Source: Eledone cirrhosa (lineage: Eukaryota). Taken from it: a stretch of DNA of 64,000 nucleotides. Of this stretch, positions 255 to 63,122 are shown piece by piece. The stretch is taken from the NCBI GenBank assembly GCA_964016885.1, contig OZ024741.1, forward strand, positions 266,848,001 through 266,912,000, given 5' to 3'. The stretch's first letter is position 1; the number at the start of each line of letters is the position of its first letter. The position numbers were made by a program, and so were the translations under genes. A model generated the notes under the pieces. The model was not told where the DNA came from, did not search any database, and saw only the letters and a list, made by a program, of their open reading frames with translations.

Positions 255-626
255 ATAATAATAAAATTGAAGACTAAAATCCAGAGAGGGCTCGATAAGG
301 AAAATATATATCAAATATATAAGAACCGAAGAGCAAATATTTATTAAAATAACAGATTAAAGTTTAAGCAAAGAATCGCTGCTTTCACCCTTAACGGGAT
401 CTTCTGAAACTAACAAAGTCAATCTGTAAACGCAGAACTGGATTAAAAGGGTAGAACACTGGAAGGTAATATCCGTAGTGGTAGAGCATTCAGTCCATGG
501 GACGAGTTTGGTAGAAGTAGTAGCACAACAGTTAGTTCACCATACCGAGAACAATTGTTTCACCTCGGACTGCCGAGCTGAAACAATTGCTCTCGGTATG
601 GTGAACTAACTGTTGTGTTACTACTT
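252..626 (-). mobile_element. (TA)n-anchored dispersed repeat ending in a fold-back hairpin; probable Penelope-like 3' fragment
   Basis: 252-410 recurs inverted at 10242-10400 and directly at 10680-10760. It starts at a (TA)n tract and ends in the 54-bp inverted repeat 515-568/573-626. Confidence 0.55.
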
Positions 627-2903: not shown

Positions 2904-3147
2904 CACACACGCACACCCGTGTTTGAATGTGTACAAGCAGCTTATTAAGTCTTTTCTATATCTAAATTTCATAAGTGACAGATATATCTTAATCTCTTGA
3001 TTAACCTAACAGACAAATATCAGTTACGACAAATAAATGTAATTACAGCAGTGGGTTGCCGTAACTGTGATGGATTAGGAGAATAAAAATCAAACGGCTG
3101 GATTAGTGCCGTCTATATAACACCTGTGCACAGGTAGAATGGTGTGA

Positions 3148-3570
3148 AGGTGCGTGGCTTAGTGGTTAGCGTGTTCGGCTCACGTTCATACATAAGGTCG
3201 TAAATTTCATTCCCAGCGGTGCGTTGTGATCTTAAGCAAGATACTTTATTTCACGTTGCTTCAGTCAGCTCAGCTGGAGGAGGGGGTGAACTTTATCTGT
3301 AATTTCAAATGGCCAGCTATGTCATACACTGTGTCATGCTGAATCTCCCTGAGAATTAGGTTAAGGGGTACACGCATTTGTAAATGCTTAGCCACCTACG
3401 CTATATCACAAGCTAGACTATACTTGTAATTTAAAGGGCTTGCTGTGACACGCTGAATCTCCCTGAGAATTACATTAGTAATAAACGTGTCTGTGGAATG
3501 CTAAGCCAAATGCGCATTGATTTCACGAATAGGTCGTTTCGTTAATCCAACAACGGGAACACTCGCCGTC
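3148..3570 (+). mobile_element. tRNA-derived SINE with an internal duplication
   Basis: A-box-like GTGGCTTAGTGG, a degenerate B box and the TTAAGCAAGATACTTTATTTCACGTTGC core. Inverted relatives lie at about 975-1052, 4500-4600 and 57220-57345. GCTGAATCTCCCTGAGAATTA occurs twice. Confidence 0.65.
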
Positions 3571-9914: not shown

Positions 9915-10245
9915 CCCATAAGGATGAAAGGCAAAGTTAACCTCGGCGGTATATGGTTTGAGTTCAAATCCCGCCGAGGTTAACTTTGTTTTTCATCCTT
10001 ACGGGGTCGATAAAATAAAGTACCAGTAATGCACTGGGATAGTTGCTGGCCTTGTGCCAAAGGTAGAAACAATTATTTATTTATCGGTAATGCACTAGGT
10101 AATTGCTGGCCTTGTGTCTAACGTAGAAACAATTATTTGTTTATCGGTAGAGGGTCGGACGCCATCCTTTCCAGCATAGTTACATCCCTTTACGGTCTGA
10201 GTTCAAATCGCGCCGAGGTTGACTTTGCCTTTCATCCTTATGAAG
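9915..10245 (+). mobile_element. Cluster of tRNA-SINE family A fragments with a fold-back and a duplicated tail
   Basis: GAGTTCAAATCCCGCCGAGG...GCCTTTCATCCTTACGGGGTCGATAAAATAAAGTACCAG core is shared with 18283-18469. Inverted repeat 9915-9949/9971-10005. Confidence 0.8.
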
Positions 10246-10405
10246 ATCCCGTTAAGGGTGAAAGCAGCGATTCTTTGCTTAAACTTTAATCTGTTATTTA
10301 AATAAATATTTGCTCTACGGTTCTTATATATTTGATATATATTTATCCTTATCGAGCCCTCTTTGGATTTCAGTCTTCATAATTATTATTATTACTATAT
10401 ATATA

Positions 10406-10548
10406 TAGAAAGGATGAATATAAAATGAAAGTGCTTTTTTTAAAAAGGAATTTATTAGGTATTGACATATGTTTCTGGAAACATATGTCAATACCTAATA
10501 AATTCCTTTTTAAAAAAAAGCACTTTCATTTTATATTCATCCTTTCTA
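10406..10548. repeat. Near-perfect palindrome (70-bp arms, 2-nt loop)
   Basis: 10406-10475 is the reverse complement of 10478-10548 apart from one extra A. It abuts (TA)n. Confidence 0.95.
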
Positions 10549-11057
10549 CATTTTCTCTGGAATATAATTTATACTCGTTGAGCAAATCTGCACGTACGCT
10601 GTTCATCTCTAACGTAACGATATATTATCACTACATTATTGATAACCTGAAATTTTATATATATATATAGAGAGAGAGAGAGCAAATATTTATTTAAATA
10701 ACAAATTAAAGTTTAAGCAAAGAATCGCTGCTTTCACCCTTAACGGGATCTTCTGAAACTCAGATTCTTTACTTAAACTTTAATCTGTTATTTTACTCGT
10801 ATATTATAAACTAATATATTTCTTTATTGTTCTGTGTTGTTTGCTTTGCATATATACATATGTAAATACACATATACCCTTTTACCTGTTCCAGCCATAT
10901 ATATATATATGGGATAACAAATTATCGCTATAGGTAATCCAGTTAGAGGTTGTGAGTACTCCGTATTGTGGTTAGTTTTAACGTACGGCGTTGTTTGACT
11001 CAACAAGAGGTTTCCTTTGTTAGGTGGCGAGTTCTTGGGAATTCCTATATATATATA

Positions 11058-11198: not shown

Positions 11199-11266
11199 TA
11201 TATATATATATATATGAATATGAATTGGTGCTCTGAAATAGCGATATATATATATATATATATATA

Positions 11267-11458
11267 GTGTATTTTGCAATACACTGTATGCTTAATTAAA
11301 AGCATTTCGAAGACCTTACGCTATTGTTTTAGAGTAGTGACAGTCTCACTTACTTTAAATGCTGAAAATTTAAAGTAAGTGAGACTGTCACTACTCTAAA
11401 ACAATAGCGTAATGTCTTCGAAATGCTTTTAATTAAGCATACAGTGTATTGCAAAATA

Positions 11459-11461
<3 letters not shown>
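11267..11461. repeat. Near-perfect palindrome (94-bp arms, 7-nt loop) between two (TA)n tracts
   Basis: 11267-11360 versus 11368-11461 with one mismatch. Confidence 0.97.
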
Positions 11462-56911: not shown

Positions 56912-56998
56912 GATTTTCTACGAAAAGAGTTCAGTGAAGAAAATATCCACTTTTGGTTAGCAGTTGATGATTTTAAGAGGTCACTTGATGTAAATAAG
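56912..56998 (+). CDS. RGS12: RGS12/loco-like, coding exon 5 (RGS domain; not in ORF track). The gene continues beyond the window.
   Basis: AG at 56910-56911 and GTCAGT donor at 56999; 29 codons DFLRKEFSEENIHFWLAVDDFKRSLDVNK contain the RGS signature FL.KEFS.EN..FW. Confidence 0.93.
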
Positions 56999-57359
56999 GT
57001 CAGTATAGCTTCATCCTTAAATTATTATGTATAGAGATGTCTGTTTTAACACACACACACACACTATAAAAGAGACCAAAGCCTGTCCCAATCCTGCCAG
57101 CCTGGTGTCTCACCAGGCCTGTGCTTCCACTAAGTTCCTTGGATTTAAGTGACTGAGAGTACAAGACTCAACCCTGGACAGGACCAGGTTAAACCTTCCA
57201 ACTGTTGCTGCTGGTACTCATTTTCATCTGAGTATACTGAAGAATCATGAAATGAAGTGTTTTTCTCAATAATACAACATTAGTCCAGGAATCGAACTCA
57301 CAACATTATGATCATAAATCCAATACCCTAACTACTAGGCCACACCTTCACTATGGGGT

Positions 57360-57948
57360 CGGTCGTACAGAGGTCAGCGGCCGAATGAGGGAGTGGGATG
57401 GCGCTAGCTGTCAGTCCATTCTCTGCCTGTTTGTTAAATGTTACTGTGTGTGTGTGTGCGTGTGTTGTTGTCTCGCTTGAGTGTGTGTGTGCGTGTGTTA
57501 TTGCCTTGTTCCTCTGTATTGGCAGTGTAGTATGTTCGTATGGTGGAATGCTACTGCGTGTGTTGTGTGTTGTTGCATCGCTTGTTAACTTAAACCAGCC
57601 ATCTCATTTCGCTTCTCTCTGATCGGTTGTTTATTTGCGGTTGCAGGCGTTTGATAAAAAGCGCTTCCTTGATACGTAACGTGCCGACGTTTCTTTCAGT
57701 CGCTAGAATTGTGACAATGGGCCTTCCGTCTTTGTTTCCGCATTTGTCTATGTGTTTCCGGAAAGACGAGGCCCTGGTTTTAGTGTGTTCCTTGATCCGG
57801 ATGTGCAAAGGTCGAATTGTGCTACCTATGTAGTATTGGTTGCACCTGTCACATTCTATCTTATACATGACGTATGTGCGTAGGCCTACGCACATACGTC
57901 GTGTATAAGATAGAATGTGACAGGTGCAACCAATACTACATAGGTAGC
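57360..57948 (-). mobile_element. 5'-truncated Penelope-like retroelement: C-terminal GIY-YIG endonuclease (57590-57884), 3' UTR and terminal palindrome
   Basis: YVMYKIECDRCNQYYIGSTIRPLHIRIKEH...H...LRIKEALFIKRLQPQIN shows the GIY-YIG motifs with CxxC between them plus the catalytic R, E and N, as in Penelope-type endonucleases. The left boundary is approximate. Confidence 0.85.
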
Positions 57949-58186
57949 TCATTTACAGTGTGGGACTGAGAGATTTTTACTGTGTTACCTACACGGCCAC
58001 ATTACAGCGTGGACTGTGTGTTTTTTTTGTCGTGACACCTACACGACCTCATTTGTTTCGGCCTGGATGTTGTGGCACCAACATAACTTTACATTGAAAG
58101 GGGTGGTGTGGATGGGGTTGGGGTGGTGGTACGGGGGTGTATTTTGTTAGAGGTGCCTACTGACTGTAGTAGGTTTTATTTAGTAT

Positions 58187-59358
58187 TTAGGTAAGGCAGG
58201 TCTTCTCTATTACTGAGTACTGCCAAAGGTCTCGGTCCAGTGACATTGTCTTGGAGAGGTGTAAGTGTGTGAGGTCGGAATTTATCAAGTCGTCCCAGGT
58301 TTTTCTGGGTCTGCCTACTCCGTGGCTACCGTCTACCTTTATTGCCCTGCACTTTTTTATACAGCTGTCGTCTTTCATGCGCATCACGTGACCATACCAA
58401 CGTAGCCTTCTCTCGAGTACACAACATATGATCCCTCATATTTCTAATTTTTCCCTTAGTTCGTTAAAGCTTTGCCGTTCACGTATATTACTATTACACA
58501 TCCAGTGGAGCATGCAAGCTTCGTTCCTCTCTAGTTTGCGTATATCCTCTGCACACAATGCCCAGGTCTCACTGCCATGCAACATTGCTGTTTGTATGCA
58601 GGCATCATACAACCTGCCTTTCATTTTTAGGGAGAACTCTTTAGCGGCTAATAGTGGTATAAGCTCTCTGAACTTTTTCCATCCAGTTCTGACTCTAGCT
58701 ACTGTACTTTCAGAGCACCCTCCCCCACTGCTGATTTTGTCACACAGGTAACAGAAGCTGTCCACTATTTCTATAGAACCCTCTGCGCAATTGAAAAAGC
58801 TAGTATTTTGTGAGCACTTGCTGCTACTTATTGCACCAGAGCACCGGCCACATGTAAAATCTATGTTCTTAGTTAGCTTACCTGTGATCCCACTACATCT
58901 GTTATGCACCCATACTTTGCATTTGGGACATAAAATGGAGTTTCTACCTACGCCTTTCCTACACACTGAGCATGGCCATTTCCCGGAAGGGACCAGCCGC
59001 TCTTGAACTCCACTGTTATAGCCTGAAGGGCAATAATAAATAATAGGGGGCTAAGAACAGAGCCCTGATGAACACCAACTTTTAAGCTAAACTCTTCACT
59101 ATATTCGTTGTTAATTCTAACCTTGCTGACTGTTTCTTTATACATGGCTTGTATAGCTCTCACAAGCCATTCGTCAACACCTAGTTTTCTAAGAGCCCAC
59201 CAGATAATGGAACGGGGGACTCTGTCGAAGGCTTTCTCCAAATCGACAAAAGCTAAGTATAGGGGTTTACTTTTAGCTAGGTACTTCTCCTGTAGTTGTC
59301 GTACAATGAAAAGAGCGTCTGTGGTACTTTTGCCTGACACAAACCCGAACTGCATTTC

Positions 59359-59359
<1 letters not shown>
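58187..59359 (-). mobile_element. RTE-clade LINE pseudogene, 5'-truncated, with the RT active site deleted
   Basis: [42 protein letters not shown], then a jump from EFKSG to PSGKWPC that removes YADD. Followed by a Cys/His finger, LHGSETW and GRPRKTW. Confidence 0.92.
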
Positions 59360-59419
<60 letters not shown>

Positions 59420-60339: not shown

Positions 60340-63122
60340 ACTGATGAATGTGGAGAACGAATGGGAGAGAGAGAAATTACCCTCAGTAGATCCGACAGAG
60401 GGACCAGCTATTGAGATTGACGAATAAAGGGGCCAAGAGGCGATTAAGGAAATGAAAAATGGTAAGGCTGCTGGACCATCGGGAATAGTTGCTGAGATGC
60501 TGAAGGCATCAGGGGATGTAGGCACTAAACTGGTTGCACGCATCATCAATCAGGCTATATATGGCGGTGTCATACCCAAAGTCTGGTGCAGCAGTATTCT
60601 CATAAATTGCTACAAAGGTAAAGGGGATGCTCTGGAGAGGAGCAATTATAGGGGTATAAAACTGATGGATCAGGTTATGAAAGTGGCAGAAAGGATATTA
60701 GTGCAGTGACCTACATTCCGCAGGCTCACATACATTCTCTGTGTGTGATTTGGCTCTGCTCAGCCAATCAGCGCCAGTAGAAGAGAATGTATCTCTACGC
60801 GCCCTGAAGGAAAAATTCCTGCGTTGATTTGAAGAATCAGCCTCTCGCATCCTGACTGAAAAGGTAAACAACTAACTTTCTTTCGCCGTGAAATCACTAG
60901 CCAACATGTAACACAACAACTTAACCATGGCCTGGCAACACTTCAGCCAGTGGACCGTGCCTTCTGAAATCCTTAATTCGCTTGTTTTATTACTCTTGGC
61001 ATGCCTGCTCTACACAGCTCAACCTTATTAATAAATAATGTAAAACAAGACAAAGTCGTTGTCGATGTTCTTACCACATCTTTCTACAGAACTGGTTACT
61101 CGTGGCGCTACTATCAATAACACAAAATATTCGTACAATAATTTGGTGGCTCTTCGAGCCATGTAAATACAAGTATCACAGAATAAGATTATAATATAAT
61201 TTGTATAGCATCCGAAAGATACAACATGAATAAACAGAAATGGTGCGTGTGAAGATGCAAACGGTGTGAACTTACTATGAATGCGTATCAGTATATTTGC
61301 TTGTTTTAGTAGTAGGAGTCAGCAATCAGCCAGGCAGGTGAGAATAAGTGACAGACTGGTATTTCGTTACGAGAGCTTGTAAATGCAACTTGTCTTGTCT
61401 GTATATCACTTCTTTTCTCCCGGGGCGTAAACAACCCCTGTATTTATAAGGGTTGAAGATAGAAGGATAGATATATCCTCTGAACTTCGGTTAGTCTCCC
61501 CCAAGGGATTAGTTTGCCAAGCGTAAACAAGTCAGAAAGATGGATATATCCTCTGACCTATTTTCTGTCAGGTGTAAACACCTCTGACCTGTGTTTAGTC
61601 TCTCCCAAGGGGTTAGTCTCTTGAGTGTAAGCAACTTACCACGGCTTGTCCCAGAGGCGGGAAAGCTCAGATTCGGTTTTGAATCTTCGCCGCCGTTATA
61701 TTAGCACAACTAATTAGAGAAGGGGTAACTAGATGAGATGCAGTTTGGTTTTGTGCCTGGGAAGAGTACAACAAATGCCCTCTTCTTGGTGAGATAATTG
61801 CAAGAGAGGTTCTTAGAGAAAAATAAGCCACTATACTTAACCTTTGTTGACCTAGAGAAGGCCTTTGATAGGGTACCCCGATCTGTCATCTGGTGGTCCC
61901 TAAGGAAACTAGGTGTTGAGGGATGGCTTGTGAGGACAGTGCAAACTTTGTACAGAGGTACTGTCAGTAAAGTGAGGGTAGGAATGGATTTTAGTGAGGA
62001 ATTCCAGATACAAGTAGGAGTACATTAAGGTTCGGTCCTCAGCCCGCTCTTGTTCATTATAGTCCTCCAAGCCATAACAGAGGAGTTTAAGACTGACTGT
62101 CCATGGGAACTTCTCTATGCTGACGATTTGGTTCTTATAGCAGAATCAGTAGAGGAGTTACAGAATAAATTCTGGCTATGGAAACAGCAATTGGAAGCAA
62201 GAGGACTGAGAGTGAACCGAGCTAAGACAAAAGTGTTGATGAGTAGAAAAGAGGACAAAACTCTGATTCCGTCAGGGAAATGGCCATGTTCGATATGCAG
62301 AAAAGGAACTGGCATAAATTCTATAGAATGCACACAATGCAGATCCTGGGTACACAAGAGATGTAGCGGGATAGCAGGCAAACTAACAGGTAGGGAGAAA
62401 TATGTATGCAGTAGATGTACAGGGAAATTAGACAGTAGAAGTCGCATTGATAGATACATTTTTCAAATGCAGGCGGGTGCTATAGAAGTGGTGGATAGCT
62501 TCCGGTACCTAGGAGATCAGATTAGCATGGGAGGGGGGGGGGGGGTCCGAGGCTATAGTATCTAGAATAAGGATGGGTTGGAAGAAGTTTAAGGTGCTGC
62601 TTCCTCTGCTGACAAAGAAGGGTTTCTCCCTGCGTACGAAAGGCCGGTTATATGATGCCTGTGTGAGGAGCGCGATACTGTATGGTAGTGAGACATGGGC
62701 AGCAACTGCAGAGGATATGCAACGGCTGGAGAGAAATGAGGCAAGCATGCTCCGTTGGATGTGCAATGTAAATGTGCGTGAACGACCCAGCATGAATGTA
62801 TTGAGAGAGAAACTGTGTCTGAGACGGATAGAATGTAGTGTACGGGAGAGGAGACTGAGGTGGTATGGACATGTGATGCGCATGGAGGATGACCGATGGG
62901 TGAAGAAGTGCCAGGAAATGCCAGTTGAAGGAAGACATGGTAGAGGTAGACCACGAAAAACATGGGCGGAGGTGGTGAGAACAGACCTCAGATCATTGAA
63001 GCTCATGGTGGAGATGACGAAGGACCGTGACAAGTGGAGAGATGCTGTGCTGAATAAGACCCGTCTCACCCTTGCAAGCAGGGAAGAGCGGACGTAAAAT
63101 GATTATGATTATGATGATGATG
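60340..63122 (+). mobile_element. RTE-clade LINE (family A), 5'-truncated, with stops and frameshifts, interrupted by a solo LTR
   Basis: [48 protein letters not shown], a Cys/His finger, LYGSETW, RLRWYGHVMR, GRGRPRKTW, and a (TGA)n-like tail. Confidence 0.95.
60702..61700 (-). mobile_element. Probable solo LTR (999 bp, 4-bp TSD, Gypsy-like)
   Basis: Termini TGCAGTGAC...GCCGTTATA form a degenerate TG..CA inverted repeat, and TTAG is duplicated on both sides. Removing it restores the LINE frame ERILAQLIRE. Minus-strand TATAAATA at 61441-61448 and AATAAA at about 60986-60991; short direct repeats at 61470-61620. Confidence 0.7.

What the first reader, a model, noticed from the sequence alone, without database searches (positions are those of the whole stretch)
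57590..57948. Penelope GIY-YIG fragment whose 5' truncation point is a loopless 128-bp palindrome
Seen: the GIY-YIG reading frame stops at 57884, and 57885-57948 is the reverse complement of 57821-57884 (63/64 identical, centre AGG|CCT, no spacer). The folded-back arm reads VVYKIEC, the more canonical form, while the other arm reads VMY, so the single difference probably arose after duplication. Known: Penelope-like elements often leave 5'-truncated copies with inverted segments. Inference: the nascent cDNA snapped back on itself to prime second-strand synthesis. This differs from L1 twin priming, which inverts a non-overlapping segment. This copy ties the anonymous palindromes in the window to a candidate enzyme family.
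Basis: partly seen in the sequence, partly recalled or inferred. Interest (0 to 1): 0.75.

Follow-up and report, generated by a model that had tools for sequence, protein, structure and literature searches.

The report
Broken head-to-head Penelope retrotransposon insertion
The perfect mirror repeat is real and is the remnant of a head-to-head insertion of a young Penelope-type jumping gene, a layout already described for this class, and it likely formed when both cut DNA ends copied the same RNA and the two copies were joined, rather than by one copy folding back on itself.

Summary
The palindrome is confirmed (63/64, no spacer). It belongs to a young Penelope-like family (RT plus C-terminal GIY-YIG; over 2,200 motif hits). 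41 of 83 loci taken in genome order are head-to-head and two-armed, versus 1-2 of 22 neighbouring-LINE controls. Snap-back fails as the family's general mechanism: 58 of 60 two-armed loci pair one tailed with one untailed start, and in 30 of 46 neither arm is contained in the other. Sister arms share subfamily alleles (550/589) and end within 5 nt of each other more often than chance (7/75 vs 0.95). Best reading: both target ends prime on one RNA; a loopless centre forms when both cDNAs stop at the same RNA end and anneal by a self-complementary 2-4-mer (GC here). Of 27 other loopless copies, 18 have an arm broken near the centre, like this copy, which also lost its 3' end and 134 nt of the neighbouring LINE. 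Snap-back remains possible for this short-arm class. Reads were inconclusive. Architecture and tail are published; this scan reached the two-ended reading before on other DNA, including this genome.

The parts
57353..57885 (-). Long arm: 533-nt internal piece of the Penelope-like family (reference positions 2321-2955 on natural copy L047), cut at both ends
   Evidence: other copies 99% identical over 57590-57884
57590..57883 (-). GIY-YIG endonuclease coding end with stop codon at 57590-57592; CxxC between GIY and YIG
   Evidence: Pfam PF01541 23.6 bits; full RT-EN frame in L047
57353..57589 (-). Part of the 3' UTR; stops before the 3' repeat region, the hammerhead-like look-alike and both normal 3' ends
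57884..57885 (.). Self-complementary GC shared by both arms (2-nt microhomology at the loopless centre); this centre is unique in the genome
57885..57948 (+). Short inverted arm, 64 nt (reference 2322-2386), ending at neither normal start site
57868..57868 (-). Single mismatch (G>A on the long arm, CpG site); partner base 57901 keeps the family allele
57150..57354 (+). Left flank: SINE-like repeat complete to its 3' end; only AT of its usual (AT)n tail is left and is shared with the long arm (start of the repeat not mapped)
57950..59366 (-). Right flank: LINE (RTE label recalled from its C-terminal motif, not tested) lacking its last 134 nt and (GAT)n tail; one extra base at 57949; no target-site duplication

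Best explanation
This is a broken head-to-head, two-armed insertion of a young Penelope-like retrotransposon, likely made when both cut target ends primed reverse transcription on one RNA and the two cDNAs were then joined at their 3' ends. Shown for the family: about half of insertions have two arms facing outward from a central junction, one starting at the tailed and one at the untailed 3' site, in (TA)n. Inferred steps: (1) the endonuclease cuts both strands in the (AT)n between the SINE-like repeat and the LINE; (2) both 3'-OH ends prime on the same RNA; (3) both cDNAs run off the same RNA end (here a break at reference 2321) and anneal through the self-complementary GC, which gives a centre with no spacer; (4) the perfect palindrome then loses most of one arm together with flank DNA (the LINE 3' end) and the outer part of the other arm, during integration or later; (5) one CpG transition follows.
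For: Two-armed: 41/83 loci holding the first 100 exact motif hits on contig C1, 21/50 in a GIY-YIG-motif set, 14/32 top hits. One tailed plus one untailed arm in 58/60 loci with both ends at normal sites, against 49% expected from single arms (36/86 tailed), p 3.5e-16. 30/46 simple loci break containment (12 multi-piece loci left out). Three loci have a second arm that is only the tail (L054, L111, L163; also L251). Sister arms share the allele at 550/589 subfamily sites vs 56% for random pairs. Inner ends within 5 nt: 7/75 vs 0.95 expected (p 1e-4); outside the 2997 hot spot 4 vs 0.55 (p 0.002). All three kinds of loopless centre seen are self-complementary overlaps (GC, TA, ATAT); 27/76 junctions overall have 1-5 nt overlaps. 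Of 27 loopless copies at 2997, 15 keep both normal ends and all 15 pair tail with no tail; 6 of those have an internal deletion starting 16-65 nt from the centre, 11 have one arm cut to 16-132 nt, 1 has both arms cut. Arm broken within 160 nt of the junction: 17/26 independent loopless vs 7/68 unequal junctions, p 2e-7; cut arms border (TA)n in 1/12 vs 40/85 single-arm 5' junctions, p 0.012. In vitro a Penelope protein cuts and extends both strands from two start sites that bound the tail and is predicted to be a dimer (PMC11167929).
Against: This copy has neither normal outer end, so the tail-pairing and containment tests cannot be applied to it; its assignment rests on analogy with its family. 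Same-subfamily arms could come from two RNAs of one source locus or from gene conversion; only 10 of 48 sister arms are closer to each other than to every other copy. PMC11167929 saw no difference in start site between strands, which does not by itself predict strict pairing. 46/76 junctions have inserted or unmapped bases rather than overlaps. The motif sample favours two-armed loci (two chances to match). The timing of arm loss is not shown.
Confidence: 0.62

Rival explanations
1. Snap-back (first reader; self-priming as in PMC3846280): the first cDNA folded onto itself, 64 nt of second strand were made, and that end was joined to the resected target.
For: Short arms are strongly tied to loopless centres; the short arm is contained in the long one here; palindromes at inverted junctions were read as self-priming in rotifer Penelopes; a 2-bp self-annealing model is proposed for L1-induced inverted duplications of flank DNA (10.1101/2024.12.14.628481); a LINE copy here shows a looped fold-back (L206).
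Against: No loop is kept and the template offers no stem for this centre: the next templated base is A, not C, and the natural stems nearby would give other junctions. Impossible for 30/46 sister loci. Loopless copies with intact ends pair tail/no tail 15/15. Short arms border (TA)n less often than ordinary 5' junctions (1/12 vs 40/85), and six loopless copies show the same break points as internal deletions with the normal end still present.
Confidence: 0.17
2. Twin priming with an internal second primer: a resected target end inside the LINE 3' UTR primed 64 nt from the end of a broken RNA, and the SINE-side end primed internally at an AT; no later loss is needed.
For: The LINE sequence at the break resembles the antisense element over 7 nt (6 of 7; AAATGTG vs AATTGTG); AT is shared at the other end; classical non-overlapping inversions occur in the family (L004, L011, L221, L257).
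Against: The base at 57949 breaks that microhomology; internal outer ends are rare outside loopless copies (3/68 short ones); two internal primings at one site are needed.
Confidence: 0.14
3. Two separate RNAs from one source locus, copied by a dimer, stopped by chance or at a strong stop at the same base.
For: Explains containment failures and tail pairing if the dimer is asymmetric; 23/124 arm ends fall at 2990-3007, a natural stop.
Against: 2321 is not a hot spot (centre unique); equal ends outside the hot spot exceed permutation (4 vs 0.55).
Confidence: 0.05
4. Assembly or read fold-back chimera.
For: No public record bridged the centre or the arm-LINE junction (see Tried and rejected; inconclusive).
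Against: The mirror stops after 64 nt and enters a different element; the arms differ at a CpG; 27 loopless copies recur at one family position with aged, differing arms.
Confidence: 0.02

Closest known systems
Endonuclease-positive Penelope-like elements with an adjacent inverted 5'-truncated copy and one-sided 30-40 bp tail (Craig et al. 2021, PMC8557442; passages read)
   Same: RT plus C-terminal GIY-YIG with CxxC between GIY and YIG, partial tandems, inverted 5' copy, tail on one side, (TA)n targets.
   Different: That paper ascribes the tail to endonuclease resolution and gives no counts in the passages read; here tail pairing (58/60), containment failure (30/46) and equal inner ends are counted, and this copy has lost both outer ends.
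Adineta vaga Penelope elements (Arkhipova et al. 2013, PMC3846280; first fifth of text and passages read)
   Same: Palindromes at inverted head-to-head junctions.
   Different: Read there as self-priming, possibly on an antisense template; the family data here favour priming from both target ends.
Poseidon_Ac in vitro (Frangieh et al. 2024, PMC11167929; first two of four parts read)
   Same: Both strands cut and extended, AT-rich target, two start sites bounding the tail, predicted dimer.
   Different: No strand difference in start site reported and no head-to-head product analysed in the parts read; tail here lies at the start codon region, not 111-118 nt into the ORF.
L1 twin priming (Ostertag and Kazazian 2001; recalled, and as cited in 10.1101/2024.12.14.628481, passages read)
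   Same: Both target ends prime on RNA; cDNAs joined head to head with short microhomology.
   Different: In L1 the second primer anneals internally and arms mostly do not overlap; here both primers start 36-41 nt apart so the arms overlap almost wholly.

Membership tests
EN+ Penelope-like elements | One ORF with RT followed by C-terminal GIY-YIG endonuclease | tested here: met
   L047: RVT_1 E 1.3e-8 and GIY-YIG at the C-terminus; that copy is frameshifted near its start; the window holds only the EN end
EN+ Penelope-like elements | CCHH motif with two cysteines between GIY and YIG | tested here: met
   VVYKIECDRCNQYYIG...KEH...KH; motif definition
EN+ Penelope-like elements | Partial tandems (pLTR), inverted 5' copy, optional 30-40 nt tail | tested here: met
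   L047, L036, L166, L263 tandems; 41/83 two-armed; ends at 3319-3324 or 3360
EN+ Penelope-like elements | Hammerhead ribozyme in the pLTR | tested here: inconclusive
   No canonical core by regex or Rfam; a degenerate look-alike lies near reference 3078-3108, outside the window copy
EN+ Penelope-like elements | RT groups with PLE/telomerase RTs in a tree | not tested
   No reference set fetched
Neptune/Nematis clade | CX2-5CxxC linker upstream of GIY-YIG | tested here: inconclusive
   Linker reads CSLRDCPIRHANCC: cysteine-rich but not the exact motif; clade not assigned
Naiad/Chlamys | N-terminal endonuclease | tested here: not met
   EN is C-terminal
cDNA snap-back product | Second arm contained in the first, with a loop or template stem at the fold | tested here: not met
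   Containment holds for this copy but fails in 30/46 sisters; no loop and no template stem
L1-type twin-priming inversion | Inverted piece lies 5' of, and does not overlap, the direct piece | tested here: not met
   Arms overlap fully here; a minority of family loci do fit (L004, L011)

The most novel reading that the evidence does not exclude
Penelope integration is a coordinated two-ended reaction in which one RNA molecule is copied twice, once from each of the two start sites; loopless centres mark the 5' end of that single RNA, and the perfect palindromes so made are fragile and delete their own arms and neighbouring DNA, so Penelope families act as a genome-wide source of small deletions and intronic hairpins.
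Probability: 0.4. Interest if true: 0.65.

Novelty: new member of a known kind. Interest (0 to 1): 0.4.

Why it matters
How Penelope-like elements make their inverted repeats is open: one paper proposed self-priming, another endonuclease resolution, and an in vitro system now exists. The counts here (strict tail pairing, containment failure, equal inner ends, broken arms at loopless centres) give sharp predictions that this system can test. The single locus is a dead fragment in a likely intron and matters only as an example; the layout is published and this scan has noted the two-ended reading several times.

Tried and rejected
Independent reads: 6 indexed runs hold the family; contigs of 4 runs and one RAD-seq run gave no record bridging the centre or the arm-LINE junction. 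They are short unitigs or reduced libraries, probably of other individuals, so this is no verdict either way. Rfam on a full-length copy: 19 matches, all below gathering score, no ribozyme. Hidden short inverted arms at single-arm 5' ends: 16/87 at 8 nt or more vs 5/85 control, nearly all (TA)n self-matches; only L166 is a real 15-nt tailed arm. Arm-to-arm identity as a same-template test: weak (median 2.55% vs 4.2% to other copies; nearest other copy 1.4%); subfamily sites were used instead. Target-site duplication: none of 4 nt or more within about 30 nt of either end. Propagated palindromic subfamily: rejected, the centre occurs once. Same family for the other window palindromes: rejected. 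LINE control L213 looked two-armed but its arms are separated by (TA)n; 8 of 30 control loci ran off the fetched stretch and were left out. Literature: searches for Penelope with twin priming (2 papers, listing only) and with self-priming/both strands (1 paper, listing only) gave nothing on a dual-priming count; the library lacks most subscription papers and no supplements were read, so absence from print is not shown. The retrozyme preprint (10.64898/2026.07.22.740005) had no passage on tails or palindromes. No complex or structure prediction was run.

Full report
Observation. The palindrome is as described: 57821-57884 and 57885-57948 are reverse complements at 63/64, with the mismatch at 57868/57901 and no spacer; it folds far better than any of 200 shuffles. 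The minus-strand frame is a GIY-YIG domain. The window lies in a 3.0-Gb animal genome.

The family. The 295-nt coding piece has 1,755 candidate places, the best 40 at 99% identity; a 34-nt 3' motif has 2,209 exact matches and a 32-nt GIY-YIG motif 432. Natural copy L047 carries a 450-nt upstream repeat, RT and C-terminal GIY-YIG and served as reference (3,360 nt from the start codon). Copies end either at 3319-3324 or at 3360, a 36-41 nt optional tail, and mostly run into (TA)n (73/85 single-arm 3' ends, 129/138 two-arm outer ends). This is the published layout of endonuclease-positive Penelope-like elements (PMC8557442; PMC3846280). The clade was not determined.

This copy. The long arm spans reference 2321-2955 and the short arm 2322-2386. 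The family base before the break is G, so both arms include the central GC. Neither outer end is a normal one. On the left, a SINE-like repeat is complete up to the AT of its tail; on the right a LINE lacks its last 134 nt and tail. There is no target-site duplication. The centre occurs once in the genome.

Among 83 loci that hold the first 100 motif hits on contig C1, 41 are head-to-head two-armed; among 50 new loci from the GIY-YIG motif list, 21 (15 listed hits were not fetched; L219, L241 and L246 were left out as off-edge or repeats); among 32 top hits, 14, this copy included. The motif sample favours two-armed loci. Of 30 control LINE loci taken the same way, 22 show their 5' end, and one has a directly joined inverted arm, a looped fold-back; a second is two insertions split by (TA)n (Fisher p 6e-5 or 5e-4).

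Mechanism. Snap-back requires one arm to be contained in the other. In 30 of 46 simple loci the shorter arm has the tail that the longer lacks (12 multi-piece loci dropped), so both arms were read from RNA. One arm is tailed and the other not in 58 of 60 loci, where single-arm copies predict 49%; in L054, L111, L163 and L251 the second arm is the tail alone. Sister arms share subfamily alleles at 550 of 589 site comparisons against 56% for random pairs, though overall identity separates sisters from other copies only weakly (10 of 48 closest). Inner ends fall within 5 nt in 7 of 75 unselected loci (0.95 expected), 4 of them away from the hot spot at 2997 (0.55 expected). Exactly loopless centres were seen at 2322 (GC), 2349 (TA) and 2997 (ATAT), each a self-complementary overlap, within the 1-5 nt overlaps found at 27 of 76 junctions. 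Two identical cDNA ends can anneal only through such a word; a single cDNA folding back should keep a loop, and the family sequence has no stem that yields this centre. These data fit the in vitro finding that a Penelope protein cuts and extends both strands from two start sites bounding the tail (PMC11167929). Inference: two primers, one RNA, joined 3' ends.

Why the arm is short. 27 loopless copies centre on 2997. Nine have both arms whole; six keep both normal ends but have a deletion in one arm starting 16-65 nt from the centre; eleven (two of them duplicates) have one arm cut to 16-132 nt; one has both arms cut. All 15 with both ends pair tail with no tail. An arm broken near the junction is seen in 17 of 26 independent loopless copies against 7 of 68 unequal junctions, and cut arms border (TA)n in only 1 of 12 cases against 40 of 85 ordinary 5' junctions (the two sets differ slightly in the shortest arm detectable). 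The simplest reading is that loopless palindromes lose arm and flank DNA, during integration or later; the window copy, with a 64-nt arm next to a clipped LINE, fits. True snap-back or internal second priming for this short-arm class cannot be excluded.

Other palindromes in the window. Those at 515-626, 10403-10550 and 11268-11460 do not match this family. In the best 30 genomic hits of each, the 515 family is two-armed in 14 (13 of 14 one-tailed) with a hammerhead-like core in 16; the 11268 family is two-armed in 20 (16 of 17 one-tailed), forms about 321-nt tandems and has a U3-A8 hammerhead-like core in 21 (variant described in PMC4209133, passages read); the 10403 family runs into a GIY-YIG-like frame in 9 or more loci (20.2 bits, below cut-off). 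The 515 and 10403 frames show a CxCX5C linker and lack the CxxC, as described for the Hydra clade (read by eye).

Artefact check. Public contigs and reads did not bridge the junctions, which is inconclusive; anatomy argues against a chimera.

Prior work. The layout and tail are published. Earlier notes of this scan, consulted after my reading was fixed, report the same two-ended reading in this and other genomes; a second look-up on loopless short-arm copies found nothing. Verdict: real, a new member of a known kind, interest 0.4.

Noticed in passing
window 56912-56998 (+): An exon-like stretch between AG and GT encodes part of an RGS domain (Pfam PF00615, 29.4 bits); the palindrome lies about 0.8 kb downstream, likely in an intron, where it would form a 64-bp RNA hairpin (untested).
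   Followed up: partly
window 515-626: Near-loopless head-to-head insertion of a hammerhead-bearing, Hydra-like Penelope family; tail on the left arm only.
   Followed up: partly
window 10403-10660: Head-to-head insertion of a second Hydra-like family with a tail of about 95 nt on the right arm; L343 is a near-loopless sister.
   Followed up: partly
window 11221-11460: Head-to-head insertion of a retrozyme-like family with about 321-nt tandem units and a U3-A8 hammerhead-like core; L288 has the same junction at another place on the same contig.
   Followed up: partly
family reference 2990-3007 (e.g. L067, L080, L156): 23 of 124 arm 5' ends fall in 18 nt, a likely transcript start; a smaller cluster near 3100 lies at a degenerate hammerhead look-alike.
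   Followed up: partly
L206:800-842: A control LINE copy has a 32-nt 5' fold-back with an 8-nt loop, the signature expected of true snap-back.
   Followed up: partly
L162, L163, L055, L258 junctions: Junction inserts are short re-copies of nearby sequence, resembling polymerase-theta templated insertions (label recalled).
   Followed up: no
window 287-412, 10242-10354, 10649-10795: A further abundant repeat occurs three times, with inverted pairs in other loci (L252); probably another Penelope-type end.
   Followed up: no
L185 and L186 (contig C13, 0.55 Mb apart, opposite orientation): Identical short-armed loopless insertion with identical flanks: a segmental duplicate.
   Followed up: no
window 58994-59363 and 61730-62099: Inverted pair at 71% identity, 2.4 kb apart, likely two LINE copies.
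   Followed up: no
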